Sequence record: KT184315.1 | DNA: 64,000 nt | Strand: one strand, 5' to 3' | Source: Enterobacteria phage KhF3 | In this document: positions 27,778 to 37,978 of the stretch, one piece after another | Numbering within the stretch: the stretch's first letter is position 1 | Layout of the letters: the number at the start of each line of letters is the position of its first letter | Made by a program: the position numbers and the translations under genes | The notes under the pieces: model-generated | The model's database searches: none | Told to the model about the DNA's origin: nothing | The model's input: the letters and a program-made list of their open reading frames with translations, nothing else

Positions 27778-27941
27778 AGGAGAAACCACAATGTACGTCA
27801 GAGACATACTGTATAAGTCTTCTTATAAAGTATAGCTCTGTAAAAAAGCCCTGTCTAAAAATACTCTTCGGTAGCGAAAGGAAGAATACTTATAGCAGGG
27901 CATTATTATTATTTTAATTGAGAGAGAGTAAAATAACTTGG

Positions 27942-28014
27942 AGAATCCGAAGGGACTCGAACCCTTATAAACCTGTTTTGCAGACAGGAACATAGCCATT
28001 TCTGTCACGGATTC
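27942..28014 (-). tRNA. tRNA-Cys (anticodon GCA)
   Basis: Manual fold: T-arm AAGGG-ACTCGAA-CCCTT (plus view), 7-bp acceptor, anticodon loop CTGCAAA, U73, CCA encoded. Confidence 0.7.
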
Positions 28015-28021
28015 AAATTGG

Positions 28022-28111
28022 AGGAAGATACCAGACTTGAACTGGTACACCGATTTCTCAGCTACTGGCAGTTTAGCAAACTGCTCCCTTACCTTTTAGG
28101 GTTAATCTTCC
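28022..28111 (-). tRNA. tRNA-Ser (anticodon GCT), class II
   Basis: T-arm ACCAG-ACTTGAA-CTGGT, 21-nt variable arm, anticodon loop TTGCTAA, perfect 7-bp acceptor. Confidence 0.7.
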
Positions 28112-28112
28112 A

Positions 28113-28847
28113 TTATTTCTGTAATGCGTTCTTCATTTCTGGTGTTGCAATAGTGTCAATCACACCAGTTTTACAAGCATCATCAAACCAGTCTGGTAAG
28201 ATACCTGCTAAGAACCCATTGATATTCGTTTTAAGGTACTCTGCAATAAGAGCAGCTTCTTCTTCAATCATCTGCACAACTTCATCTGCATAAGCTGTAA
28301 TCTTCGAAATACCTTCATTAATCTTACTAACAGCTTGGTTAGCTAAATCAGAAATAGTATCAAGACCTTTGTCAATAGCATCTTGTAAGTCACTTAATAC
28401 ATCATTAACGACATCTAGTGCACTGTTAATTGTGTCAATAGCTTTTTGACCATATTCTGTAGCAACGCCCATAATACCACTAAACGGTGTACAGCCAACT
28501 TGTTCCCCTGCTGCACCCATAACATTGGAATACCCCTTTGCTACCTGCATACGTGATGAAAACTCATCAATAGACTTTTGACCATAGTCTGTTAAGGTCT
28601 TAGTAGTCGCTGTAGTGCTTGTAAGGCTTGTTGTAAAGCTGTTTAGAAGGACTGTTGTAAGTCCAGCAGCAACAAGTTTCTCCTTCATTGTAGGGTCTGT
28701 TACAGAGCTAATAGAACTTACAAGTGATGTAGAGGCAGCTACGGTTCCACCGAGAACTGCTGCACCAGTAATAAGGGGATTAGAAAACCCTCTACCGGTT
28801 TTTAAGAGATTAAAAATCTCCTTACCTTGTTCTGTCATCTCTTTCAT
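28113..28847 (-). CDS. Hypothetical protein (Ser/Thr-rich) embedded in tRNA region
   Basis: Start moved to internal ATG at 28847 because track start 28910 overlaps tRNA-Phe. Confidence 0.4.
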   Translation of the reverse strand: MKEMTEQGKEIFNLLKTGRGFSNPLITGAAVLGGTVAASTSLVSSISSVTDPTMKEKLVAAGLTTVLLNSFTTSLTSTTATTKTLTDYGQKSIDEFSSRMQVAKGYSNVMGAAGEQVGCTPFSGIMGVATEYGQKAIDTINSALDVVNDVLSDLQDAIDKGLDTISDLANQAVSKINEGISKITAYADEVVQMIEEEAALIAEYLKTNINGFLAGILPDWFDDACKTGVIDTIATPEMKNALQK

Positions 28848-28865
28848 TAAGCACCTTTGTAATTG

Positions 28866-28940
28866 GTAGTCCAGTGGGATTTGAACCCTCTTCTCATGTT
28901 TTTCAGACACGCGCTTTAACCATATAAGCTACTTGGACTA
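28866..28940 (-). tRNA. tRNA-Phe (anticodon GAA)
   Basis: T-loop ATTTGAA (plus view), 7/7 acceptor pairing, anticodon loop CTGAAAA. Confidence 0.65.
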
Positions 28941-28948
28941 TAAATTGG

Positions 28949-29021
28949 GGTGACCTACGGGATTTGAACCCGTATAGACCATGTTCACAGCATGGGTCAT
29001 TACCATTTATGATAAGGCCAC
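28949..29021 (-). tRNA. tRNA-His (anticodon GTG)
   Basis: Perfect T-stem and anticodon stem, loop CTGTGAA, discriminator C73, CCA encoded. Confidence 0.7.
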
Positions 29022-29055
29022 ATTTAAGGACTCTCGTAAGAATCCTTAGAAGTGG

Positions 29056-29128
29056 CAGCGGCATAAGGATTTGAACCTTAATAGGACAGCTTCAGAGACT
29101 GTTGCATTGCCAGTTATGCTATACCGCT
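29056..29128 (-). tRNA. tRNA-Gln (anticodon CTG)
   Basis: T-arm TAAGG-ATTTGAA-CCTTA, anticodon loop CTCTGAA, G73. Confidence 0.65.
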
Positions 29129-29136
29129 AAATTTGG

Positions 29137-29212
29137 TACTCCATATCGGATTCGAACCGATACATAACACAGATTTTAAGTCTGGCCTCTCTGCCAATTG
29201 GAGTAATGGAGC
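29137..29212 (-). tRNA. tRNA with anticodon TAA (Leu codon UUA) but class-I length
   Basis: Perfect T-arm ATCGG-ATTCGAA-CCGAT, A73, CCA encoded; anticodon loop CTTAAAA; 7-nt variable region only. Confidence 0.55.
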
Positions 29213-29217
29213 ATTGG

Positions 29218-29290
29218 CGGGGGATGTTGGAATTGAACCAACTTCTTCGATTTCAAAGACCGAGGTTTTAACCTTGTAAACTAATCCCCT
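29218..29290 (-). tRNA. tRNA-Gln (anticodon TTG)
   Basis: T-arm GTTGG-AATTGAA-CCAAC, anticodon loop CTTTGAA, G73. Confidence 0.65.
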
Positions 29291-29298
29291 TTAAATCT

Positions 29299-29856
29299 TT
29301 ACTTTCTCAGTGGATGAATAAAGAATGCCAACATAACTCTTTCCCTTGAGAATGCTCTTTCTTCTGGGACAACACTTTTTAGTTTCCATCCAATATAAAT
29401 TCTCCAGTAAAACTGTTTACCAAAGACTTTAATTGATGGGATAAAGGCGAATAATCCCCAAGCATTACTGTTCCACATTAGGAGATAACCAGTCTGATTA
29501 TCTTCAGGGTCAGAACTTACGTTGATATTACCTTTCCACTTAGTAACATCTTTTACATCTCTTCCTAATACATGGTAAGAGAAGTTATAAGCTTTGTTTC
29601 TCCAGAGCCATCCGACTCTTTGCATGTAGACGCCTAGTTTACCAATCCATCTAATATTAGCCCATCTTTTAACGTGACCTTCATCACCATCAATTGGGTT
29701 GTCATATGTCTCCATCCATCTGAACCCGAAAGGTAAGTGTCCTTTCTTCTCACTGTAGAATGGAACTACAAAAGGTGCTAAGATAACTGCTAAGATTGCT
29801 GCAAATGGTTCTAACAAAGCTAAGAAAATCCATGAAGCATACTTTAAGTATCTCAT
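29299..29856 (-). CDS. Hypothetical membrane protein
   Basis: 185 aa; N-terminal TM WIFLALLEPFAAILAVILAPFVV; Trp-rich. Confidence 0.4.
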   Translation of the reverse strand: MRYLKYASWIFLALLEPFAAILAVILAPFVVPFYSEKKGHLPFGFRWMETYDNPIDGDEGHVKRWANIRWIGKLGVYMQRVGWLWRNKAYNFSYHVLGRDVKDVTKWKGNINVSSDPEDNQTGYLLMWNSNAWGLFAFIPSIKVFGKQFYWRIYIGWKLKSVVPEERAFSRERVMLAFFIHPLRK

Positions 29857-30095
29857 TGTCTAATCCTCGTAAGGAGGTAAATGTTATTATTCGTTTCTAA
29901 ACCTTCTGGTAAAACTATCTCAAAAATAACACTCTTCAGATGTCTACCACCAAAACAATCACGTATAAATCTTTCTACTCTAGCGGGGTCACATAAGTAT
30001 CCCACTTTTAAGAAAATGTGGTGTTCAACACCAATGACCCTGACAAACTCAATACTCTCACAGTTTTCATGTTCAACTACTGTTAATGTTTGCAT
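29853..30095 (-). CDS. Hypothetical protein
   Basis: 80 aa ORF coupled to downstream gene. Confidence 0.4.
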   Translation of the reverse strand: MQTLTVVEHENCESIEFVRVIGVEHHIFLKVGYLCDPARVERFIRDCFGGRHLKSVIFEIVLPEGLETNNNIYLLTRIRQ

Positions 30096-30115
30096 AGTAT
30101 CACCTTTTTATCTGG

Positions 30116-30188
30116 CGCAGGATAAGGGATTCGAACCCCTATTAACAGCTTCGTAGACTGTTGCTCTTTCCATTTGAACTAATCCTGC
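30116..30188 (-). tRNA. tRNA-Arg (anticodon ACG)
   Basis: 7/7 acceptor pairing, T-loop ATTCGAA, anticodon loop CTACGAA. Confidence 0.7.
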
Positions 30189-30196
30189 AAAATTGG

Positions 30197-30271
30197 TGTT
30201 CCAAGACGGATTCGAACCGTCACTAATACAAGGTTTGAGCTTGCATCCTCTGCCAATTGGGATACTGGAAC
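30197..30271 (-). tRNA. tRNA with anticodon CAA (Leu codon UUG) but class-I length
   Basis: Perfect T-arm GACGG-ATTCGAA-CCGTC, A73, anticodon loop CTCAAAC, 6-nt variable region. Confidence 0.55.
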
Positions 30272-30275
30272 ATGG

Positions 30276-30347
30276 TACTCACTAAAGGACTTGAACCTTT
30301 TTCTTCATCTTGTAAGGGTGATGTTTTACCATATAAACTAAGCGAGT
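30276..30347 (-). tRNA. tRNA-Val (anticodon TAC)
   Basis: T-arm AAAGG-ACTTGAA-CCTTT, anticodon loop CTTACAA, A73. Confidence 0.65.
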
Positions 30348-30443
30348 ATGAAAGAGGTCTGGAGTTGTGCCGCTAACTCAACTCCGTGGAATTTGTTACG
30401 GTCTTCAGTTGACTCAAAGCGGTCTTTCACTTGACCTCTGAAT
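30348..30443 (-). ncRNA. Structured non-tRNA spacer (candidate small RNA or processing element)
   Basis: No T-loop signature; hairpin GGAGTTG-N11-CAACTCC at 30361-30385; long-range GAGGTC/GACCTC; contains ACGGTCTTC motif. Confidence 0.3.
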
Positions 30444-30446
30444 TGG

Positions 30447-30519
30447 TGCTCCCACAAGGACTCGAACCCTGATAAGTTGCTTACAAGGCAACCGTAATAA
30501 CCAATTATACGATAGGAGC
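30447..30519 (-). tRNA. tRNA-Thr (anticodon TGT)
   Basis: Perfect anticodon stem GTTGC/GCAAC, loop CTTGTAA, A73. Confidence 0.7.
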
Positions 30520-30529
30520 ATTAATTTGG

Positions 30530-30601
30530 AGCATCCAGAGGGAATCGAACCCTCAACCTCAGTTTGGAAGACTGTAATTTTCCCGTTTAAACTATGGATG
30601 C
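30530..30601 (-). tRNA. tRNA-Gly (anticodon TCC)
   Basis: Perfect acceptor and T-stem, loop CTTCCAA, U73. Confidence 0.7.
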
Positions 30602-30610
30602 ACTAATTGG

Positions 30611-30683
30611 TGGAGTCACCGAGAATTGAACTCGGTTCCCAAGTTTGCAAAACTCGAATTTTAACCATATAAACTATGACCCC
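30611..30683 (-). tRNA. tRNA-Ala (anticodon TGC)
   Basis: G3:U70 wobble pair in acceptor stem (Ala identity element), A73, anticodon loop TTTGCAA. Confidence 0.75.
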
Positions 30684-30692
30684 ATTGTTTGG

Positions 30693-30765
30693 TACAGGTG
30701 GAGGGAATTGAACCCATCGTCTTACTGATTAAGAGTCAGCCGCATAACCATTTTGCTACACCTGC
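30693..30765 (-). tRNA. tRNA-Lys (anticodon CTT)
   Basis: T-loop AATTGAA with weak 3-bp T-stem, anticodon loop CTCTTAA, A73. Confidence 0.6.
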
Positions 30766-30775
30766 ATTAATTTGG

Positions 30776-30849
30776 TACACCTAGAGAGATTCGAACTCAC
30801 ACTGAGCAGATTCTAAGTCTGCTGCCTCTACCAGTTGGGCTATAGGTGC
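30776..30849 (-). tRNA. tRNA with anticodon TAG (Leu codons CUA/CUG) but class-I length
   Basis: Perfect anticodon stem GCAGA/TCTGC, loop CTTAGAA, A73, 5-nt variable region. Confidence 0.55.
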
Positions 30850-31104
30850 ATTAAATCTTTTTAGAGAACTTCTAAGAACCTAAGCAACAAGGCTCCACAA
30901 CAAGCTGTAATAACCTTAGAAGCCCTCTAAAAAGACCTAAATAGGTCTTTGCATAGTCTTGTTTAATCCGGTGACTAGAACCTTTGGAGAGCTTGATATT
31001 ATCTCTTCTCCGTGACACCTACTAGGTGCTTTGACAGTGTACGACAATACACGAGGGATAAACCGACAATGCGAACAAGCATGGACGGAGTAAATCTTAT
31101 TAGG

Positions 31105-31192
31105 CGGTAAGTAAAGGAGTCGAACCCTCACCGTATCTCTACAGTGGCAACTGTTTTCAAGACAGTTTGGCTACCATTAGCCGCTACCTACC
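31105..31192 (-). tRNA. tRNA-Ser (anticodon TGA), class II
   Basis: Perfect anticodon stem ACTGT/ACAGT, loop CTTGAAA, 20-nt variable arm, G73. Confidence 0.7.
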
Positions 31193-31208
31193 CCTAATAA
31201 GACTTTGG

Positions 31209-31288
31209 CATGGGACGGAGGAGTTGAACCCCTTTGAAACGGTTTTGGAGGCCGTTGCTCATGCCTTAGAGTCTTAACATCGTCCCAT
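31209..31288 (-). tRNA. tRNA-Trp (anticodon CCA) with enlarged D-loop
   Basis: Perfect 7-bp acceptor, G73, anticodon loop CTCCAAA; about 7 extra nt in D region. Confidence 0.6.
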
Positions 31289-31433
31289 ATTATAATTCGA
31301 AGCTTACCCTGTTATCTCAACACTGTCAAGCTTCTTCTCAGATTATTTACATGTTCTGGAAAACATGAGATACAGACCACCTCCCTACAGGAAGACCCGC
31401 TAAGGCCGTCTAAGTAATCTGCTAACTATTTGG

Positions 31434-31507
31434 TACACCCTACAGGATTCGAACCTGTAACTAACGATTTAGAAGACCGTTGCTCTATCCAATTGAACTA
31501 AGGGTGC
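31434..31507 (-). tRNA. tRNA-Arg (anticodon TCT)
   Basis: Perfect T-arm ACAGG-ATTCGAA-CCTGT, anticodon loop CTTCTAA. Confidence 0.7.
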
Positions 31508-31756
31508 ATTATCTTTAAAGACTCTCTTAGAAAGCCCTTAAAGATGCCCACCTTATTAATCATACCGTGGGCGAGTACGCCAAATTCTTTGATGAGGGAT
31601 TGGAAGACCTCACTGGTGTTTAGCCTATCAAGCTACTGCCAGAAAAACATTGTCGTTTGCATTTATTTTAAATTTGCAAAATAGACGCTACGCAACGAAA
31701 ACTAAGGTTACTATAAAGTAGTCACATCTCAATGTCAACAACTTTATTGAAATTGG

Positions 31757-31829
31757 TACTGGTAGGTGGAATCGAACCACCGATGTTCCCTTATCAGGGG
31801 AGTGTTATAACCTTCTTAACTATACCAGC
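31757..31829 (-). tRNA. tRNA-Ile (anticodon GAT)
   Basis: Perfect T-arm GGTGG-AATCGAA-CCACC, anticodon loop CTGATAA, A73. Confidence 0.7.
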
Positions 31830-31833
31830 TTGG

Positions 31834-31907
31834 AGGTTCAGATGGGAATCGAACCCACATTCATAGGGCTTATGAGACCCTTGCATTACCTTATCTGCGA
31901 CTGAACC
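31834..31907 (-). tRNA. tRNA-Met (anticodon CAT)
   Basis: Perfect 7-bp acceptor, anticodon loop CTCATAA, three G-C pairs in anticodon stem. Confidence 0.65.
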
Positions 31908-31988
31908 AGAATAAGTACCCTAGTTAGAGAAACTGTTGAGTGGGTGTTTCCAGCCGCGCAGGTGTTTCTCAGTTAAGGGTGAATTTGG

Positions 31989-32061
31989 TAGAAGTGGAGG
32001 GATTCGAACCCATCGCCTGTCAGATTAAAAGTCTGCCGCATCACCATTCTGCTACACTTCC
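31989..32061 (-). tRNA. tRNA-Lys (anticodon TTT)
   Basis: Anticodon loop CTTTTAA, A73, T-arm similar to the other Lys tRNA. Confidence 0.65.
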
Positions 32062-32065
32062 ATTA

Positions 32066-32209
32066 AATTATCTTTGTAGATAAGCTACCCAGACTTGCTT
32101 AAGGTCTGTAGCGATGTGCCTTTTTGGGTTTAAATCTAGAATTTACCCTTTCACCCTTTGTGGTCGCATACTCACAGGTAAGCTTAATAACTTATCTACA
32201 AAGATAATT
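32066..32209. repeat. 19-bp perfect inverted repeat (AATTATCTTTGTAGATAAG) with arms about 106 nt apart
   Basis: Left arm 32066-32084, right arm 32191-32209 (reverse complement identical). Confidence 0.7.
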
Positions 32210-32234
32210 ACCAGACCGTTGTTTATCATCTTAA

Positions 32235-32307
32235 GTGCTACCATTACACCAACTCGACATCTGCCGAGTGAAGGAATCGAACCTTCGCCTTTTCTTTACC
32301 GGAGAAA
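32235..32307 (-). ncRNA. tRNA-like element with all tRNA arms present in circularly permuted order (anticodon GGT)
   Basis: Minus-strand order: anticodon arm TTTCT-CCGGTAA-AGAAA, 4-nt variable, T-arm GAAGG-TTCGATT-CCTTC, 3' acceptor ACTCGGC, linker AGAT, 5' acceptor GTCGAGT, U8, D-arm GTGT-AATGGTA-GCAC; bracketed by 8-bp helix (plus 32213-32220 with 32331-32338). Confidence 0.4.
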
Positions 32308-32524
32308 TAGATTGTTTAAGTTTTGCTGTAAACGGTCTTCTGTAAAATTGTTGAGCCAGACCAAGTTTTATAAATTTTTTCAAAATTAAATTGGCTTGAA
32401 AATATCATACGTACTTGCTGAATTTGGTCTTCTGCTCCTTTAAAGAATACTCGTAAGAACTCTTTAAGGGAGGGGCTAAAATAGCCCTCTCAAACATCAT
32501 TTTGAAATACTTATTATAATTTGG

Positions 32525-32599
32525 CGGTTACGAAGGGATTTGAACCCTCATCATCTCCCGTGACAGGGGAGTATTTTAACCAGATTAAACTACATAACC
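32525..32599 (-). tRNA. tRNA-Asp (anticodon GTC)
   Basis: Perfect anticodon stem CTCCC/GGGAG, loop CTGTCAC, T-loop ATTTGAA, CCA encoded. Confidence 0.7.
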
Positions 32600-32608
32600 T
32601 TTATTTGG

Positions 32609-32693
32609 TGTGCCGTGTAGGAGTCGAACCTACCGAGTCTCAATGACAAGGGATTTACAGTCCCCACCGCTACCATCTACGGGATAACGACAC
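32609..32693 (-). tRNA. tRNA-Tyr (anticodon GTA), class II
   Basis: Perfect T-arm GTAGG-AGTCGAA-CCTAC, 15-nt variable arm, anticodon loop CTGTAAA, A73. Confidence 0.7.
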
Positions 32694-32705
32694 ATTTAAA
32701 TTTGG

Positions 32706-32779
32706 CGGTTAGTCAGGGATTCGAACCCTGTGCCATTCGCTTAACAGGCGACCGCACATACCTTATGTGCTTCCTAACC
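32706..32779 (-). tRNA. tRNA-Asn (anticodon GTT)
   Basis: Perfect T-arm CAGGG-ATTCGAA-CCCTG, anticodon loop CTGTTAA, G73. Confidence 0.7.
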
Positions 32780-32856
32780 TTAATACATTGCCAGACCGTG
32801 TTTTTTCTTTTATCCGCAAAAAGTATTTTGTTGCTGAATACGGTCTTCTGCAAAAT
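32780..32856 (-). ncRNA. Repeated hairpin spacer element (CAGAAGACCGT ... ACGGTCTGG family)
   Basis: 7-bp stem AGACCGT/ACGGTCT enclosing about 40 nt that begins ATTCAGCAA; same arms recur at 32211/32331, 32356/32426, 32943/33008. Confidence 0.35.
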
Positions 32857-32859
32857 TGG

Positions 32860-32933
32860 AGGCGGGTGCAGGAGTCGAACCTGCCGATACCATGCTAATG
32901 AGACATGTGAGACGCCCTTTCTCTATACCCGCA
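32860..32933 (-). tRNA. tRNA with anticodon CAT (Met- or Ile2-type) and unpaired 1:72
   Basis: Perfect T-arm GCAGG-AGTCGAA-CCTGC, D-stem GAGA/TCTC, anticodon loop CTCATTA, first acceptor pair mismatched. Confidence 0.55.
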
Positions 32934-33027
32934 ATTCTTAATGACCAGACCAAATCTATTCTTTGTCCGATTTACCTTCAGATGAATAAGATTAAGTTTG
33001 CTGTAATTGGTCTTCTGTCAAAACTGG

Positions 33028-33102
33028 CGTTCCAGAAGGGATTTGAACCCTCAGATATCCACTTTGAAAGAGTGGTGACTTTACCATTTTGTCTACTGGA
33101 AC
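33028..33102 (-). tRNA. tRNA-Glu (anticodon TTC)
   Basis: 7/7 acceptor pairing, perfect anticodon stem, loop CTTTCAA, G73. Confidence 0.7.
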
Positions 33103-33112
33103 ATTAATTTGG

Positions 33113-33186
33113 TCTCTGTTGGAGGACTTGAACCTCCGGCCTTACCGCCCCAAACGGAACGCTCTACCAAGCTGAGCTAAACAGAG
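33113..33186 (-). tRNA. tRNA-Pro (anticodon TGG)
   Basis: 7/7 acceptor pairing, perfect T-arm GGAGG-ACTTGAA-CCTCC, loop TTTGGGG, A73. Confidence 0.7.
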
Positions 33187-33304
33187 ATAAACTTTTCAAA
33201 CTCTATGTAACCACTTTAACATTATTTTTTAGTGGTTGTCAAGAACTTTTTTAAAATATTTTTCAGTATCTTAGAAAAGCTCTCATTTCGTTTCTATGTA
33301 GAAC

Positions 33305-33333
33305 ATATTAAAGGGTATTAAACACATTGTCAA
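33305..33333 (-). promoter_or_regulatory. Sigma70-type promoter (TTGACA-17-TAATAT) reading into the tRNA array; embedded in a 9-bp-stem hairpin
   Basis: Minus strand AAGGGTATTGACAATGTGTTTAATACCCTTTAATAT; -35 at 33333-33328, -10 at 33310-33305. Confidence 0.5.
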
Positions 33334-33351
33334 TACCCTTTTTAAAACTTT

Positions 33352-34767
33352 TTACCAGATGTAACGGTCAATCATTACTGCTTTGAGCATTACGCTGGTT
33401 GGGTCAAACTTCTCACCACCAAGCAGAGCTTTTAAAGTGGCTGGAGAGAACCCTGATACCATTGCTACACCGTTATCCTTAACAGACACTTCGCAAGTAC
33501 CACTACGGTTTGCTAAGTACCAGAATACCAGTTGTGGCATTTCGTATCCAGCTTTTTTGTACTTACTACGAATTGCTTCAAAGTTTGTACGACCATTTGC
33601 ACCGTCAACCTGATTGAACTCCATATCAGAGAAGATGATAAGCTTACTTGGCATATCTTTCTGAGTCAAGTTGTTTCTCTTACCTGTCTCAAGAATGCGG
33701 TCAAAAGCTGCTTGTAAGTTAGTTGAACCGTATTCAACATGACGCATTACCTGACGATGACGGTTTCGTAAATCACCACTCAGTTCAATGAAGTGAGGGT
33801 TTGTTGAATAAACCATCAACTCATTCTTAAAGCAACCTGTATTACGTTCTGCTACATACAATGCAAGTGAAACACCAATATCAAGAGCAGTAATTGAACC
33901 AAAATTCACCCAAGACATTGAACTTGAAACATCAGACATACATAGAATGTTTTCACCCTCTGCCATCCAGTTTGGTAGTGCTTTCCACTGCTCATTAGCA
34001 ACATCTGCATTACCATACTTAACAGATTTAATCACATCGTATGGGTAAACAGCACCAGCATTAATCTTAGTCTCACCCTTTGATAAGGACTCGATGTAAG
34101 CTTTGTAGCGCTCTCCATCTTTACGGTTAAACAGTTTTTGGTAACGTGCAGCAGCAAGTGAAGGAATCTTGCTGTAATCAATCTTACCAAACTCATTAGC
34201 AGAGATTTTTTGCTCAACTGTATCAGATAGTGCAGACAACAGTGTGCGGTACTCTTTCTCACTCAAGTTGGCAAACTTGCAGAAACGTTTTACAAACTGT
34301 TTGTGGCGTGGTTTTACTCGTGGCAACCACTTAGCTGCTAAACCTGCTGTTGCAGGGTCTAGTAATGCTGCTTCTAAATGTTTGAAGGCATCTGTCTCGA
34401 AACGAGTACCTACGAAGATTTTGAAGTCATCAAAGCGACCAAGTTCTGCAATCTTATCCATAATGCGAAGAACCTGTGTAGGTTCTAAAACTTTATCTTC
34501 AATCGCTTGAAGCAAAACAGTTCTGAAGGCTTTACGCTCACCCATACCTTCTCGTACATCTCGCATATGCAGTAAAATACGAACTGCAACATCAACATCC
34601 TCACGCAAAGCTTTGTAGAACAAGTCTGGTAAGATTTCTACATTGCTACGGCTTGAACCAGCAGCTTTGTAAAAATCTACAAGAGCAGACATTGATGAAG
34701 TATGGTTTACAGCACCATTTTCAGTTCGACCTGCATGAAGGTGCGCATGTTTAAATAACTCGCTCAT
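33352..34767 (-). CDS. vWA-domain protein (MIDAS motif DxSxS) with helical N-terminal domain
   Basis: CMSDVSSSMS (DxSxS) followed by beta-strand LIIFSDMEF; 471 aa. Confidence 0.5.
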   Translation of the reverse strand: MSELFKHAHLHAGRTENGAVNHTSSMSALVDFYKAAGSSRSNVEILPDLFYKALREDVDVAVRILLHMRDVREGMGERKAFRTVLLQAIEDKVLEPTQVLRIMDKIAELGRFDDFKIFVGTRFETDAFKHLEAALLDPATAGLAAKWLPRVKPRHKQFVKRFCKFANLSEKEYRTLLSALSDTVEQKISANEFGKIDYSKIPSLAAARYQKLFNRKDGERYKAYIESLSKGETKINAGAVYPYDVIKSVKYGNADVANEQWKALPNWMAEGENILCMSDVSSSMSWVNFGSITALDIGVSLALYVAERNTGCFKNELMVYSTNPHFIELSGDLRNRHRQVMRHVEYGSTNLQAAFDRILETGKRNNLTQKDMPSKLIIFSDMEFNQVDGANGRTNFEAIRSKYKKAGYEMPQLVFWYLANRSGTCEVSVKDNGVAMVSGFSPATLKALLGGEKFDPTSVMLKAVMIDRYIW

Positions 34768-34805: not shown

Positions 34806-34840
34806 GACTTTAGAGCAACTTTGTAGAGTCTGTCAACACC
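34806..34840 (-). promoter_or_regulatory. Hairpin containing TTGACA; candidate promoter/terminator between convergent-to-tandem genes
   Basis: GACAGACT ... AGTCTGTC inverted repeat; minus strand TTGACA-N18-TAAAGT. Confidence 0.35.
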
Positions 34841-34848
34841 TTTTAAAA

Positions 34849-35220
34849 TTATTTTTTGAGGGTTGCAACAGCAGAGAACGTTGGTTTGTTATCTGTCTGA
34901 GACTGACCGCCGTTATCAGGGGTCTTCTTAGTGTCTGCTGCAATTGCTTTCATCTCACCTGCTGAGTGAGTCATGATAGTTTTACCGACCTCAATCATAC
35001 TCTTGATGGTTACGTCATCTGTGTTTAACCCGAACTCTGCAAGCTTAGCAGCATCCCTTGTAACAATCGCTTCAAATAACTTTGCAGCAAACTCAGCAGA
35101 ATTGTCAATGGTCAGTTGAGCTTTTACAAGTGAGCTTTTGTTACGAGAGCCTTTTGGTCTTCCAGATGGGTTTCCAGACTGGCCTTTTTTAAACTGGCCT
35201 TTGTTTGTTCTGTTTTTCAT
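34849..35220 (-). CDS. Hypothetical protein with N-terminal basic GNPSGRPKG motif
   Basis: 123 aa; KKGQSGNPSGRPKGSRNK N-terminus. Confidence 0.45.
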   Translation of the reverse strand: MKNRTNKGQFKKGQSGNPSGRPKGSRNKSSLVKAQLTIDNSAEFAAKLFEAIVTRDAAKLAEFGLNTDDVTIKSMIEVGKTIMTHSAGEMKAIAADTKKTPDNGGQSQTDNKPTFSAVATLKK

Positions 35221-36476: not shown

Positions 36477-36848
36477 ATGAAAGCTAAGAGTGCAAAAGAC
36501 TTTTATTGCTTCCTACAATCCTATATCAATTCCGTGCAAAATGGTGAAAGGTACAACCTTAATGATGTTATCCCAACACCTTTGACATGGAGACTCAGTA
36601 AATGGCCTGAAGAAGATATTACACCAACAATCGAACAGCGTACCTACAAACCTGAAATCAATATTCCAGACTCTGAGAATCTATTATACCCAATGTTCCA
36701 TATTGTTGGTCTTGGAAGATTCCTTATGGATATCCAGTATGTAATTGGTAAAGGTTATAAGGTTAAAGGTATTGTCGTTGGTGATGTATCTCCGAATCAC
36801 AAAGGTTATTTTAGACTAAACGCACATTTAGAGGCTGAAAAGAAATGA
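36477..36848 (+). CDS. Hypothetical protein, paralog of N-terminal domain of next gene
   Basis: Shared pattern KAK..DF.......RY....WPE.DI....YKP....LLY....MD.QY with 36845-37978. Confidence 0.5.
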   Translation: MKAKSAKDFYCFLQSYINSVQNGERYNLNDVIPTPLTWRLSKWPEEDITPTIEQRTYKPEINIPDSENLLYPMFHIVGLGRFLMDIQYVIGKGYKVKGIVVGDVSPNHKGYFRLNAHLEAEKK

Positions 36849-37978
36849 TTAAAGCAAAGACTTACCCAGACTTCAAAGAGTTTGTGAAGGGCTTCATTGC
36901 AAACGTAAAGGCTGGTAAGAGATATGATTTTAGAACATATCAAGAGGCTATTTTACCACTTACCTATAGTTCATATTGGCCTGAAGCTGATATTGCAGAA
37001 GTTGAGAAGTTTGACTACAAACCAGACTACAAAGTCCCATTTAGTGATGAGTTGCTTTACAGCGTTGGTGCTCAAATGAGAACTTCTGACTTCTTCATGG
37101 ACTTACAATATGCAATTATCAATGGTAAAGATGTTGATACAGTTTATTGTGAATGGCTGGCAAGGGTTAAACCATTCTCAATGTTGAATGCTAAGTTGAA
37201 GGATGCTATCAAGCCACCAGCAATTACTCAGCAGCCAACAGGTCAAACAGTTAATGAGGGTGGCACACTTACTCTAACCATTCTAGCAACTAACGCCACT
37301 GGATATCAGTGGAAAAAGGATGGTGAGGACATCCCTAGTGCCAATTCTGCAACTTACACAAAACAGTCAGTAGCACCTTCTGACGCTGGTTCATACACTT
37401 GTGTTGTATCTGGAGAAGGTGGAACAAGTGTTACCTCAGATGCAGCAACAGTGACTGTGAACGCACTACCTGTGATTACCAAGCAACCTTCTAACCAGAC
37501 TATTAATGAAGGTGGAAACATCAACTTAGCAGTTACTGCAACAGGTGCAACAGGTTACCAGTGGAAGAAAGATGGCTCTGACATTCCTTCAGCTACAAAT
37601 GATACCTATAGCAAGTCTGGTGCTCTGCCAGCAGATGCAGGTTCATACACTTGCGTTGTAACAGGTGCAGGTGGCTCTGTAACGTCTAACGCAGCAACAG
37701 TTACTGTGAATGCACTTCCGGTAATCACTCAACAGCCAACCAATCAAGAAATCAATGAAGGTGAGACCTTAACACTGAATGTTGTGGCAACAGGTGCAAC
37801 AGGTTACCAGTGGAAGAAAGGTGAGGAAGATATCCTTGATGCAACCGCTGCAACTTACACTAAAGAAGGTGCAACCGCTGCTGATTCAGGAAGCTACACC
37901 TGTGTAGTTACTGGTGCAGGTGGCTCTGTAACATCTAATGCAGCAACAGTTACAGTTAACCCAGCAGGGGAGGCATAA
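36845..37978 (+). CDS. Protein with N-terminal paralogous domain and three tandem Ig-like repeats
   Basis: Three ~80-aa repeats: ATGYQWKKDGxDIPSA...TYT...AGSYTCVVxGxGGxSVTSxAATVTVN. Confidence 0.55.
   Translation: MIKAKTYPDFKEFVKGFIANVKAGKRYDFRTYQEAILPLTYSSYWPEADIAEVEKFDYKPDYKVPFSDELLYSVGAQMRTSDFFMDLQYAIINGKDVDTVYCEWLARVKPFSMLNAKLKDAIKPPAITQQPTGQTVNEGGTLTLTILATNATGYQWKKDGEDIPSANSATYTKQSVAPSDAGSYTCVVSGEGGTSVTSDAATVTVNALPVITKQPSNQTINEGGNINLAVTATGATGYQWKKDGSDIPSATNDTYSKSGALPADAGSYTCVVTGAGGSVTSNAATVTVNALPVITQQPTNQEINEGETLTLNVVATGATGYQWKKGEEDILDATAATYTKEGATAADSGSYTCVVTGAGGSVTSNAATVTVNPAGEA

What the first reader, a model, noticed from the sequence alone, without database searches (positions are those of the whole stretch)
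33305..34767. vWA-domain protein immediately upstream of the tRNA/structured-RNA array
The 471-aa protein has a C-terminal vWA fold signature with an intact MIDAS motif (DVSSS) after a long helical N-terminal region. That resembles the domain order of Ro60/Rsr-type RNA-binding proteins, which partner with tRNA-like non-coding RNAs. It is transcribed towards the tRNA array, which contains non-tRNA structured RNAs and a permuted tRNA-like element. A consensus promoter (TTGACA-17-TAATAT) embedded in a hairpin lies between the gene and the array. The association is speculative.
Basis: inference. Interest (0 to 1): 0.5.

Follow-up and report, generated by a model that had tools for sequence, protein, structure and literature searches.

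The report
Phage Ro60-like protein with Y-like RNAs
This Felix O1-type phage gene encodes a very divergent relative of the Ro60 RNA-binding ring protein, and four unannotated small RNAs in the neighbouring tRNA array (one a circularly permuted tRNA mimic) look like its Y-RNA-type partners, a gene-RNA pairing that recurs in many unrelated phages.

Summary
A 471-aa ORF (33352..34767, minus strand) encodes a helical N-terminal domain plus a vWA domain with a complete MIDAS motif. It is transcribed towards a 26-tRNA array, past a TTGACA-17-TAATAT promoter that sits inside a hairpin.

The protein is 98% identical to Bas63 gp130. A 2024 preprint showed that gp130 counters the Ppl defence, noted its Ro60-like fold, and guessed that some annotated tRNAs might be Y RNAs.

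What I add is the candidate partner RNAs. They are four unannotated spacer elements (E1-E4) that share a closing stem and a CAGCAA loop motif. E4 encloses a permuted tRNA-like domain with the YrlA arrangement (T arm, closed acceptor stem, D arm).

The same RNA motif lies on the gene strand next to DUF2828 genes in diverse phages, with or without tRNAs nearby: 79 of 79 covariance-model hits are on the gene strand. Three copies also follow a mycobacteriophage 'Ro-like' gene.

Binding between protein and RNAs is inferred, not shown.

The parts
33352..34767 (-). CDS, 471 aa: divergent Ro60-like protein (DUF2828 + DUF7788). Orthologue of Felix O1 ORF42 and of Bas63 gp130.
   Evidence: ORF. Pfam and PHROG 850 'RNA-binding protein'. 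Felix O1 synteny. 98% identity to bas63_0130. Fold matches Ro60.
33973..34767 (-). N-terminal alpha-helical repeat domain (aa 1 to about 265). It resembles the TROVE ring by fold only.
33400..33948 (-). vWA domain (aa 274-456, DUF7788), Ro60-type.
   Evidence: Pfam E 2.5e-43. hhalign against a Ro60 profile: probability 91%, E 1.1e-6 over aa 232-451. 8 of 42 members weakly hit vWA_Ro60 PF25045.
33919..33933 (-). MIDAS DxSxS (D279-V-S-S-S283). The remaining MIDAS residues are T349 (33721-33723) and D381 (33625-33627).
   Evidence: Invariant columns in alignment A1.
34807..34836 (-). Promoter-like site P1 (TTGACA-18-TAAAGT) in front of the gene, inside the inverted repeat TGACAGACT/AGTCTGTCA.
33305..33341 (-). 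Promoter-like site P2 (TTGACA-17-TAATAT) inside a 12-bp hairpin, between the gene and the tRNA array.
33213..33242 (-). Promoter-like site P3 (TTGACA-18-TAAAGT, TG-extended) inside the inverted repeat AACCACT/AGTGGTT, just upstream of tRNA-Pro.
32942..33020 (-). E1: Y-like RNA, short type. It fills the spacer between tRNA-Glu and tRNA-Met. Closing stem UGAC/GUCA, then AGACCAA/UUGGUCU, then the CAGCAA loop motif.
   Evidence: Pattern. Fold. CM R1 38.9 bits, E 4e-4, as a seed sequence.
32788..32853 (-). E2: Y-like RNA, short type, in the spacer between tRNA-Met and tRNA-Asn.
   Evidence: 32.9 bits, seed.
32353..32437 (-). E3: Y-like RNA, short type, downstream of tRNA-Asp.
   Evidence: 35.1 bits, seed.
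32208..32345 (-). E4: Y-like RNA, YrlA type. The same closing stem and CAGCAA motif enclose a circularly permuted tRNA-like domain: V-like hairpin, T arm GAAGG-UUCGAUU-CCUUC, closed acceptor-like stem ACUCGGC/GUCGAGU, U8-G9, D arm GUGU-AAUGGUA-GCAC. The core is at 32235..32286.
   Evidence: ARAGORN calls the re-permuted sequence a tRNA but not the native one. Rfam gives a partial tRNA hit at 32269..32319.
27939..33186 (-). Array of 26 tRNA genes co-oriented with the gene. E1-E4 lie in its promoter-proximal part.
34849..35220 (-). Upstream co-oriented ORF (123 aa; Felix O1 ORF41, DUF5681). Context only.

Best explanation
The gene encodes a ring-shaped, Ro60-like RNA-binding protein of the large, mainly viral DUF2828/DUF7788 family. 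It is the orthologue of Bas63 gp130, which has been shown to counter the Ppl defence system.

I propose that it assembles with phage-encoded Y-like small RNAs, E1-E4, which are transcribed with the tRNA array. E1 and E2 exactly fill tRNA-tRNA spacers, so the enzymes that mature the flanking tRNAs (RNase P and the 3'-end trimmers) would release them. This step is inferred.

Each RNA brings its 5' and 3' ends together in a helix. The helix starts with invariant A-U and G-C pairs next to an unpaired 3' G. On the 5' strand it is followed, after 2-3 nt, by single-stranded CAGCAA. I take this module to be the protein-binding site, by analogy with the Ro60-binding stem of Y RNAs.

The sequence enclosed by the stem is a variable 'cargo'. 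It can be an A-rich loop, a permuted tRNA mimic (E4, as in bacterial YrlA), a whole tRNA-like sequence, or another fold. By analogy with Y RNAs, the cargo would tether the ring to, or compete for, host tRNA- and RNA-handling enzymes such as PNPase.

Shown here: the fold; the RNA motif and its structure signal; the gene-RNA linkage. Taken from the literature: the anti-Ppl phenotype of the orthologue. Inferred: protein-RNA binding, release by tRNA processing, and the effector role of the cargo.
For: Protein.
- The model is confident: pLDDT 89.4, pTM 0.89.
- Foldseek PDB: the top 10 hits are all Ro60, Rsr or phiLo Ro60, aligned full length.
- hhalign against a 29-sequence Ro60 profile: probability 91%, E 1.1e-6 over the last helix plus vWA plus C-terminus.
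- The MIDAS residues are invariant.
- In the BFVD viral structure library, canonical phage TROVE/Ro proteins are the next fold neighbours after DUF2828 proteins.
- Homologues in cluster-L-type mycobacteriophages (31-34% identity, full length) are already annotated 'Ro-like RNA binding protein'.

RNA in the window.
- Four minus-strand elements match CAGAAGACC-N2-5-WCAGCAA; 0 matches are expected by chance.
- All four fold with the same closing architecture, and the lower stem covaries: UGAC/GUCA, UUGC/GCAA, GAGC/GCUC, UUAC/GUAA.

Linkage between gene and RNA.
- In 80 viral loci carrying a homologue (75 of them at 38-47% identity), a strict stem+CAGCA pattern gives 97 hits on the gene strand, 3 on the other strand, and 0-6 in shuffles.
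- 40 of 80 loci have a hit within 600 nt of the gene. 21 loci have the motif but no tRNA within 6 kb.
- A sequence-only motif, with no pairing required, gives 103 matches on the gene strand and 9 on the other. 81 of the 103 have a 6-bp partner downstream, against 14 of 67 in control loci (Fisher p = 6e-14).
- Covariance model R1: all 79 hits with E<=1 in 969 kb are on the gene strand; 48 of them are not seed sequences.
- In 120 control loci, hits with E<=0.1 fall in four DUF2828 loci plus one short 3.1-kb locus.
- Of 121 arbitrary matches to AAGGN5TTACAGCAAA in viral contigs, the 6 that have the gene nearby all have it on the same strand, 30-1135 nt away, and all 6 are structured. None of the 98 unstructured matches has the gene.
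- Vibrio phage phi-pp2 has 4 elements interspersed in its 18-tRNA array upstream of the gene.
- Mycobacterium phage BigCheese has three elements, one with T arm, closed acceptor stem and D arm, directly after its 'Ro-like' gene and before a terminator. There the otherwise invariant A-U pair is flipped to U-A.

tRNA mimicry.
- Non-ARAGORN T arm / hairpin / D arm elements found independently in L011, L014, L015, L024, L028 and L054 all carry the stem+CAGCA module.
- 17 of 36 long elements found through the stem alone carry a T-arm motif.

Function. Bas63 gp130 is 98% identical. Its deletion cripples plaquing on a Ppl host and complementation restores it (PMC11482910).
Against: - No experiment here or in the literature shows that the protein binds E1-E4, or even that E1-E4 accumulate as stable RNAs.
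- Bas63 gp130 expressed alone from a plasmid, or inserted into T7, rescues T7 on Ppl. The anti-Ppl activity therefore does not need the phage RNAs.
- The N-terminal domain has no detectable sequence similarity to TROVE, so RNA binding rests on fold similarity.
- The RNA motif (CAGCAA) is not the YrlA motif GNCGAAN0-1G, and no Rfam Y-RNA family matches.
- Folding energies of E1-E4 are only modestly better than shuffles (z -1.4 to -2.5).
- R1 does not detect E4 or the mycobacteriophage copies.
- About a quarter of the distant loci show no element with my methods.
- The scans that required stem pairing are circular with respect to covariation. Only the strand, shuffle and control comparisons are independent.
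Confidence: 0.7

Rival explanations
1. The protein works alone as an anti-defence factor, for example by binding Ppl or its trigger through the vWA/MIDAS face or the ring. On this view the CAGCAA elements are not effector partners. They would be cis-regulatory or titrating sites, such as autoregulation of the gene's own mRNA or control of tRNA-precursor processing.
For: gp130 alone rescues T7 on Ppl without any Felix-type RNA. In many loci a short element lies in the immediate 5' leader, ending just before the Shine-Dalgarno sequence (e.g. L049 5906-5946, L055, L069, L078, L028 5950-5986), or directly after the stop codon. That placement fits cis regulation.
Against: The elements also occur several kb from the gene, scattered in tRNA arrays (window E1-E4; phi-pp2). 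They carry elaborate cargo such as tRNA mimics, which a simple operator would not need. This rival still requires the protein to bind the motif, so it differs in purpose rather than in the pairing.
Confidence: 0.2
2. E1-E4 are generic spacer hairpins of the tRNA operon (processing signals, attenuators or terminators) and have nothing to do with the protein.
For: They sit between tRNAs. E1 and E2 exactly fill tRNA-tRNA spacers. Their folding z-scores are modest.
Against: The motif follows the gene, not the tRNAs. 21 loci have it with no tRNA within 6 kb and 40 of 80 have it within 600 nt of the gene. The single-stranded CAGCAA and the flanking A-U/G-C pairs are conserved across phages of Proteobacteria and Actinobacteria while the stem covaries. 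There is no T-run after the stems.
Confidence: 0.06
3. E4 is a genuine circularly permuted tRNA gene that is circularised and re-cut into a functional tRNA, not a Y-like RNA.
For: After in-silico permutation ARAGORN calls it a tRNA with an 'intron'. The universal tRNA positions are present: U8, A14, G18-G19, A21, G53-U54-U55-C56, A58 and C61.
Against: The acceptor-like stem is closed by a 4-nt loop and has no CCA or discriminator context. The 'anticodon arm' is replaced by the same closing stem and CAGCAA module found on cargo-less E1-E3. No bacterial or phage machinery for maturing permuted tRNAs is known (my own knowledge). The closed acceptor-like stem varies from 0 to 8 bp in other phages.
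Confidence: 0.03
4. The repeats are DNA-level elements (a miniature inverted-repeat mobile element), and the protein is an unrelated vWA protein such as a MoxR-type cochaperone or a structural protein.
For: Four copies share terminal inverted sequences (CAGAAGACC ... GGTCTGG). vWA domains occur in many contexts.
Against: Orientation is strictly tied to the gene strand: 79 of 79 CM hits, and 97 against 3 in the pattern scan. The stems covary between phages rather than being conserved as DNA. No MoxR ATPase is nearby. The best full-length fold matches are Ro60 only.
Confidence: 0.02

Closest known systems
Bas63 gp130 (bas63_0130, Escherichia phage JohannRWettstein, MZ501086), from the PhageMaP preprint PMC11482910
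   Same: 460 of 471 residues are identical. The synteny is the same: the gene lies directly upstream of tRNA-Pro, tRNA-Glu and the rest of the array. The authors report that it counters the Ppl defence, note 'high structural similarity to Ro60', and suggest Y-RNA partners among the tRNA genes.
   Different: The preprint did not identify any RNA; it suspected the annotated tRNAs. The candidates found here are unannotated spacer elements. In the Bas63 record, E3 and E4 lie under two small opposite-strand 'hypothetical protein' CDS.
Bacterial Ro60 (Rsr) with YrlA/YrlB Y RNAs (Chen et al. 2014, PMC4201824)
   Same: A ring plus vWA protein. The RNAs are encoded within a few kb on the same strand. 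The 5' and 3' ends are paired in a stem with a short conserved motif on the 5' strand. One RNA carries a tRNA-like domain ordered T arm, closed acceptor stem, D arm.
   Different: The N-terminal domain is not recognisable as TROVE by sequence. The motif is CAGCAA after the stem, not GNCGAAN0-1G. The RNAs are embedded in a tRNA array. Cargo is far more varied. There is no rtcBA-type repair operon nearby.
phiRo60 of Thermus phage phiLo with Yrl1/Yrl2 (PMC12135203; PDB 9kop, 9l5y)
   Different: phiLo Ro60 is labelled a TROVE-domain protein and its RNAs carry a CGAA motif. It shares 15% identity with the window protein in the structural alignment.
Mycobacteriophage 'Ro-like RNA binding protein' of cluster-L-type phages (e.g. 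BigCheese gp55)
   Same: The same DUF2828-type family (31-34% identity over the full length). The gene is followed by three stem+CAGCAA elements, the middle one a permuted tRNA mimic, and then a terminator.
   Different: High-GC versions in which the first stem pair is U-A instead of A-U. My model R1 does not detect them. They are distinct from the canonical TROVE Ro of cluster C1 phages such as ET08.
Other TROVE proteins (vault TEP1, telomerase p80)
   Same: A TROVE-type helical module that binds small non-coding RNAs (my own knowledge).
   Different: These are large multidomain eukaryotic proteins. I made no specific comparison here.

Membership tests
DUF2828 / DUF7788 (Pfam PF11443 + PF25043); PHROG 850 | Matches both Pfam models above their gathering scores. 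| tested here: met
   PF25043 148.4 bits (cut-off 27.1). PF11443 102.2 bits (cut-off 29). PHROG 850 E 2.4e-183. All 42 aligned homologues match both models.
Ro60 / Rsr (TROVE PF05731 + vWA_Ro60 PF25045) | N-terminal TROVE (HEAT-repeat ring) domain recognisable by sequence. | tested here: not met
   No TROVE hit at E<=10 for any of 42 members. No PDB sequence hit. hhalign of the N-terminal halves gives probability 0.2%.
Ro60 / Rsr (TROVE PF05731 + vWA_Ro60 PF25045) | Overall Ro60 fold: helical ring capped by a vWA domain. | tested here: met
Ro60 / Rsr (TROVE PF05731 + vWA_Ro60 PF25045) | Ro60-type vWA with a MIDAS motif. | tested here: met
   hhalign probability 91%, E 1.1e-6 over aa 232-451 against human Ro60 314-536. 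8 of 42 members hit PF25045 weakly. DxSxS, T and D are invariant.
Ro60 / Rsr (TROVE PF05731 + vWA_Ro60 PF25045) | Binds Y RNA on the outer surface and misfolded RNA ends in the cavity. | not testable with these tools
   Needs RIP/CLIP, EMSA or a structure.
Y RNA, YrlA class | Encoded within about 4 kb of the Ro gene on the same strand. | tested here: met
   E1-E4 lie 0.3-1.1 kb downstream on the same strand. The same holds across loci.
Y RNA, YrlA class | 5' and 3' ends pair in a stem that carries the conserved Ro-binding motif GNCGAAN0-1G. | tested here: not met
   The stem is present, but the conserved motif is C[A/C]GCAA placed 2-3 nt after the 5' strand. A GGCGAAGG string in E4 lies next to the T arm and is not conserved in other phages.
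Y RNA, YrlA class | tRNA-like domain ordered T arm, acceptor-like stem-loop, D arm. | tested here: met
   Met for E4 and for homologous elements in L009, L011, L014, L015, L020, L024, L028, L054 and BigCheese. Not met for E1-E3, which resemble YrlB in lacking such a domain.
Y RNA, YrlA class | Match to a curated Rfam Y-RNA family. | tested here: not met
   Only tRNA and tmRNA families matched in the window region at E<=1 and in 10 distant loci at gathering score.
Anti-defence protein (Ppl counter, Bas63 gp130) | Orthology to the tested protein. | tested here: met
   98% identity and the same gene order. The phenotype itself comes from PMC11482910 and was not tested here.

The most novel reading that the evidence does not exclude
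DUF2828 proteins and stem+CAGCAA RNAs form a widespread, previously undescribed class of viral Ro/Y-type ribonucleoproteins. The protein family has 709 of 50,697 phage records and 8,871 cluster representatives at 50% identity, and it extends to giant viruses. On this reading, interchangeable RNA cargo modules (tRNA mimics, whole tRNA-like sequences, other folds) direct one ring protein against different host RNA-handling or defence enzymes. The tRNA-array setting would reflect a role in protecting or policing phage tRNAs under attack by host nucleases, and the anti-Ppl activity of gp130 would be one output of this system.
Probability: 0.3. Interest if true: 0.85.

Novelty: new variant of a known kind. 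Interest (0 to 1): 0.66.

Why it matters
Ro60/Y-RNA particles are conserved from bacteria to humans, yet their function remains poorly understood. In phages they have so far been tied to canonical TROVE proteins, mostly of actinophages: 358 phage records.

If the pairing proposed here is right, a second and larger branch exists. It comprises 709 phage records, including Felix O1, KVP40-like vibriophages and phages of Listeria, Staphylococcus, Campylobacter and Enterococcus. This branch has its own recognisable RNA partners with a simple, searchable signature.

One member of the branch already has a genetic phenotype, countering the Ppl defence, in a tractable E. coli phage. That makes an old question directly testable: what does the RNA do for the ring?

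It would also correct annotation. The spacer RNAs are unannotated, or are annotated as small opposite-strand ORFs.

Tried and rejected
- Sequence searches of the protein and of its family profile against PDB found nothing relevant. NCBIfam gave nothing.
- Rfam at E<=1 over the tRNA region, and at gathering score over ten distant loci, found no Y-RNA-like family. There were only weak, sub-threshold tmRNA and permuted-tmRNA matches at 31508-31812.
- A literature search for 'DUF2828' returned only plant and tardigrade papers.
- The AlphaFold-database fold library was unavailable.
- My reverse test with a 14-base pattern in viral contigs was swamped by chance matches: 115 of 121. It became informative only after filtering for structure.
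- A first version of the sequence-only motif was mis-specified by one base and gave a meaningless result. It is corrected.
- A relaxed pattern that allowed G-U pairs and looser tails was too noisy to count loci: 212 hits against 79 on the other strand.
- The covariation count on alignment A4 is 100% paired by construction, so I do not use it as evidence of structure. It shows only which pairs are invariant.
- MAFFT could not align the closed acceptor-like stem and D arms of the tRNA-like elements well enough for a formal pair count, so I built no second model.
- Model R1 misses E4 and the high-GC mycobacteriophage copies.
- I fetched the ET08 (canonical Ro) region to compare its published YrlA directly, but could not parse the RNA by eye and dropped the comparison.
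- The supplementary tables of Chen et al. 2014, which list their 22 phages, are not held. I therefore cannot exclude that a DUF2828-type phage was among them.
Full report
**What the window is.** The region around the finding is 96-98% identical at the DNA level to Felix O1-like phages (Felixounavirus); 252 phage records match it. The ORF corresponds to Felix O1 ORF42 (NP_944857). RefSeq names that protein 'RNA-binding protein' and other records call it 'vWFA protein' or 'hypothetical protein'. It opens a minus-strand block in this order: ORF41 (DUF5681), this gene, a tRNA array, then the terminase further downstream.

**Checking the observation.**
- The ORF runs 33352..34767 on the minus strand and encodes 471 aa.
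- ARAGORN finds 26 tRNAs at 27939..33186, all on the minus strand. The gene is therefore transcribed towards the array.
- DVSSS lies at aa 279-283. D279, S281, S283, T349 and D381 are invariant among 42 homologues sharing 40-89% identity, so the MIDAS motif is complete.
- TTGACA-17-TAATAT is at 33333..33305 inside a 12-bp hairpin at 33341..33310.
- Two more minus-strand sites have a perfect TTGACA: 33242..33213, and 34836..34807 in front of the gene. Each also sits inside an inverted repeat.
- The total number of promoter-like matches in the region is no higher than in shuffles, so promoter function remains a consensus-level inference.

**What the protein is.**
- Pfam places it in DUF2828 (E 3.9e-29) plus DUF7788 (E 2.5e-43). 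PHROG 850 is named 'RNA-binding protein'.
- There is no TROVE hit, no NCBIfam hit and no PDB sequence hit, even with a family profile.
- An AlphaFold2 model built on the 42-sequence alignment is confident: pLDDT 89.4, pTM 0.89.
- In Foldseek against PDB, the ten best hits are all Ro60 proteins (Xenopus, human, D. radiodurans Rsr, Thermus phage phiLo). They align over the full length (TM up to 0.66, E 1.6e-8 to 2e-7). vWA-only hits start at E>1e-3.
- For a profile comparison I reconstructed the human, Xenopus and Deinococcus Ro60 sequences and verified them against PDB. I then added 27 bacterial TROVE proteins.
- hhalign of the phage family against this profile gives probability 91% and E 1.1e-6. 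The match covers only aa 232-451: the last helix before the vWA domain, the vWA domain itself, and the C-terminal tail.
- The N-terminal halves alone show nothing (probability 0.2%).
- The protein therefore has the Ro60 architecture and a Ro60-type vWA domain. Its ring domain is TROVE-like by fold only.
- The family is large. It has 8,871 representatives at 50% identity with E<=0.001. 709 of 50,697 phage records carry it, in phages of Escherichia, Salmonella, Vibrio, Listeria, Staphylococcus, Campylobacter, Enterococcus, Bacillus, Aeromonas and Mycobacterium. It also has giant-virus members.
- The mycobacteriophage members (31-34% identity, full length) are already annotated 'Ro-like RNA binding protein'.
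- Canonical Rsr-type Ro proteins occur in a different set of 358 phage records, mostly actinophages and including ET08.

**Prior art.**
- The PhageMaP preprint (PMC11482910) studied Bas63, a Felixounavirus. Its gp130 (bas63_0130) is 460/471 identical to the window protein and has the same position, directly upstream of tRNA-Pro and tRNA-Glu.
- The authors report that deleting g130 cripples plaquing on a host carrying the Ppl defence (a single gene with ATPase and PHP domains), and that complementation restores it.
- They also report that gp130 supplied from a plasmid, or inserted into T7, rescues T7 on Ppl.
- No RNA was identified in the preprint. My searches of the held literature for YrlA, Y RNA, Ro60 or TROVE together with phage terms found nothing that describes such RNAs for this family.

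**The candidate partner RNAs in the window.**
- While reading the tRNA-array spacers on the minus strand I found four elements that begin CAGAAGACC-N2-5-WCAGCAA. There are 4 matches where 0 are expected. Each ends in GGTCTGG.
- Their coordinates are:
  - E1: 32942-33020, between tRNA-Glu and tRNA-Met.
  - E2: 32788-32853, between tRNA-Met and tRNA-Asn.
  - E3: 32353-32437.
  - E4: 32208-32345.
- All four fold into the same closing architecture: a 4-bp lower stem, a small internal loop, and an upper stem AGACCNN/NNGGUCU. The lower stem differs by compensatory changes: UGAC/GUCA, UUGC/GCAA, GAGC/GCUC, UUAC/GUAA.
- E4 encloses, in this order:
  - a V-like hairpin;
  - a T arm, GAAGG-UUCGAUU-CCUUC;
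  - a closed acceptor-like stem, ACUCGGC-AGAU-GUCGAGU;
  - U8-G9;
  - a D arm, GUGU-AAUGGUA-GCAC.
- The usual universal tRNA nucleotides are present in E4.
- This is the T arm / closed acceptor stem (AS) / D arm order that defines bacterial YrlA Y RNAs (PMC4201824).
- E4 is the only such arrangement in the 64-kb window.
- ARAGORN recognises E4 as a tRNA only after I open the AS loop and close the 5' and 3' ends.
- No further elements of this family are present in the window.

**Do the RNAs go with the gene?** I fetched 80 viral loci that encode a homologue. Five are Felixounaviruses and 75 share 38-47% identity with the window protein.

1. *Strict pattern.* The pattern is A, a stem starting with G, 2-4 nt, C[AC]GCA, then the reverse complement of the stem followed by TG.
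   - It gives 97 hits on the gene strand, 3 on the other strand, and 0-6 in block shuffles.
   - 53 of 80 loci have at least one gene-strand hit.
   - The stem sequence differs freely between phages.
2. *Position.*
   - 40 of 80 loci have a hit within 600 nt of the gene, often directly after the stop codon or in the 5' leader.
   - 21 loci have the motif but no tRNA within 6 kb. The motif therefore follows the gene, not the tRNAs.
   - Separately, 34 of 80 loci carry tRNAs, all 342 of them on the gene strand.
3. *Non-circular test.*
   - The sequence-only motif AG[GA]N6-7C[AC]GCAA occurs 103 times on the gene strand and 9 times on the other strand in the 75 distant loci.
   - 81 of the 103 have a 6-bp complementary partner downstream, against 1 of 9 on the other strand and 14 of 67 in control loci (Fisher p = 6e-14).
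4. *Covariance model.*
   - I built model R1 from 31 short elements.
   - It finds 79 matches with E<=1 in 969 kb. All 79 are on the gene strand and 48 are not seed sequences.
   - The hits include loci that the pattern had missed: L010, L013, L017, L019, L021, L026, L027, L033, L037 and L053.
5. *Reverse direction.*
   - 121 arbitrary matches to AAGGN5TTACAGCAAA in viral contigs are mostly chance.
   - In the 6 loci that carry a DUF2828 gene, the gene is on the same strand as the motif and 30-1135 nt away. All 6 motifs are structured. None of the 98 unstructured matches has the gene.
   - R1 hits with E<=0.1 in these 120 loci fall in four DUF2828 loci plus L181, of which only 3.1 kb is held.
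6. *Named phages.*
   - Vibrio phage phi-pp2 has four elements interspersed in an 18-tRNA array upstream of its gene.
   - Bas63 has E1-E3 by R1.
   - Mycobacterium phage BigCheese has three elements directly after its 'Ro-like RNA binding protein' gene and before a terminator. The middle one has a T arm, a 7-bp closed acceptor stem and a D arm.
   - In BigCheese the first stem pair is U-A instead of the otherwise invariant A-U, and the unpaired 3' G is kept.

**Anatomy of the RNA family.**
- The invariant positions in the 31-sequence alignment are the 5' A-G, the CAGCA(A) motif, and the 3' C-U-G. Put differently, an A-U pair and a G-C pair lie next to an unpaired G, and covarying pairs follow.
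- The enclosed cargo varies:
  - an A-rich, largely unstructured loop (short type, like E1-E3);
  - a permuted tRNA mimic (17 of 36 long elements have a T-arm motif);
  - a whole tRNA-like sequence that ARAGORN calls a tRNA (L050, L054);
  - a conserved block, CCTTTCTGGNGGGGAAAGCAAAAACTCGCC (L008, L009, L014, L015, L020);
  - larger folds of 165-190 nt.
- T arm / AS / D arm elements found without reference to the stem (L011, L014, L015, L024, L028, L054) all turned out to carry the stem+CAGCA module.
- A conserved protein-proximal stem with a variable distal module is the logic of Y RNAs.

**How it most likely works.**
- The protein is a Ro60-type ring. This is shown at the fold level.
- The E RNAs are transcribed with the tRNA array from sigma-70-like promoters (consensus only). 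E1 and E2 exactly fill tRNA-tRNA spacers, so processing of the flanking tRNAs should release them (inferred).
- The closing stem and CAGCAA loop are the predicted binding site (inferred from gene-RNA linkage and analogy).
- By analogy with YrlA and with phiLo Yrl RNAs, which together with phiRo60 bind and attenuate host PNPase (PMC12135203), the cargo would tether the ring to host tRNA- or RNA-handling enzymes, or compete for them.
- The one experimental handle is the anti-Ppl phenotype of gp130. That phenotype does not need the phage RNAs, because gp130 alone works in T7.
- Either the RNAs serve another function or regulate the protein, or host RNAs can substitute for them. This is the main open point and the main rival reading.

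**Verdict.**
- For the protein alone the finding is essentially known, both from annotation and from the 2024 preprint.
- The identification of a specific, conserved, searchable RNA partner family appears to be new within the literature I could search. It includes a YrlA-like tRNA mimic and is linked to DUF2828 genes across phages of Proteobacteria and Actinobacteria.
- I rate the whole as a new variant of the Ro60/Y-RNA kind.
- Confidence is about 0.95 that the fold is Ro60-like, about 0.9 that the RNA elements are real and genetically linked to the gene, and about 0.7 that they are bound partners.

Noticed in passing
window 32062-32210 (minus strand): A 149-nt non-tRNA element lies between E4 and tRNA-Lys(ttt). 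A 24-bp closing stem (inverted repeat 32066-32087 / 32188-32209) encloses a multi-branched interior. MFE is -48.3 kcal/mol, z is -7.2, and 0 of 200 shuffles fold as well. It has no CAGCAA motif and no Rfam match.
   Followed up: partly
window 34807-34836, 33305-33341, 33213-33242 (minus strand): All three promoter-like sites with a perfect TTGACA sit inside inverted repeats that pair the -35 region with sequence at or just after the -10. This may be a Felix O1-type promoter/operator architecture. I did not check conservation.
   Followed up: partly
window 31212-31286 (minus strand): A degenerate tRNA-like sequence (acceptor GGGACGA.../...TCCGTCCCA, T arm GGGGTTCAACTCCTC) is not called by ARAGORN. 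Rfam tRNA-Sec gives 23 bits, E 0.61.
   Followed up: no
window 31508-31812 (minus strand); L059 11715-12132, L064 8619-9092, L072 9364-9687: The window spacer gives weak, sub-threshold tmRNA and permuted-tmRNA matches. Genuine phage tmRNA genes lie close to the DUF2828 gene in three distant loci.
   Followed up: no
L203 42749-42901 and 42913-43023 (Bas63 bas63_0137, bas63_0138): Two small opposite-strand 'hypothetical protein' CDS are annotated over the E3/E4 region of Bas63. They are probably miscalls over non-coding RNA.
   Followed up: partly
L050 5734-5834; L054 5758-5854: Here the stem+CAGCAA module encloses a complete, non-permuted tRNA-like sequence that ARAGORN calls tRNA-Thr(tgt) or tRNA-Asn(att). 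Some annotated phage 'tRNAs' may therefore be cargo of these RNAs.
   Followed up: no
L031 7895-8137; L011 5358-5485: The Rfam tRNA model spans from the D arm of one tRNA-like element to the T arm of the next (113-128 nt 'tRNAs'). In L031 the elements look like tandem tRNA-like genes with open, CCA-ending acceptor stems whose anticodon arm is replaced by a capped version of the CAGCA stem. That is a circular permutation of the E4 layout.
   Followed up: partly
L008 5276-5371, L009 3133-3233, L014 4595-4698, L015 149-281, L020 1265-1374: A second conserved cargo block, GAACCTTTCTGGNGGGGAAAGCAAAAACTCGCCAA, lies inside the closing stem in five distant loci. Its nature is unknown.
   Followed up: no
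window 36845-37978 (plus strand): A 377-aa ORF carries three tandem Ig-like repeats (PPAITQQPTGQTVNEGG...). It corresponds to the Bas63 'immunoglobulin-like domain protein' and lies just upstream of the endolysin gene.
   Followed up: no
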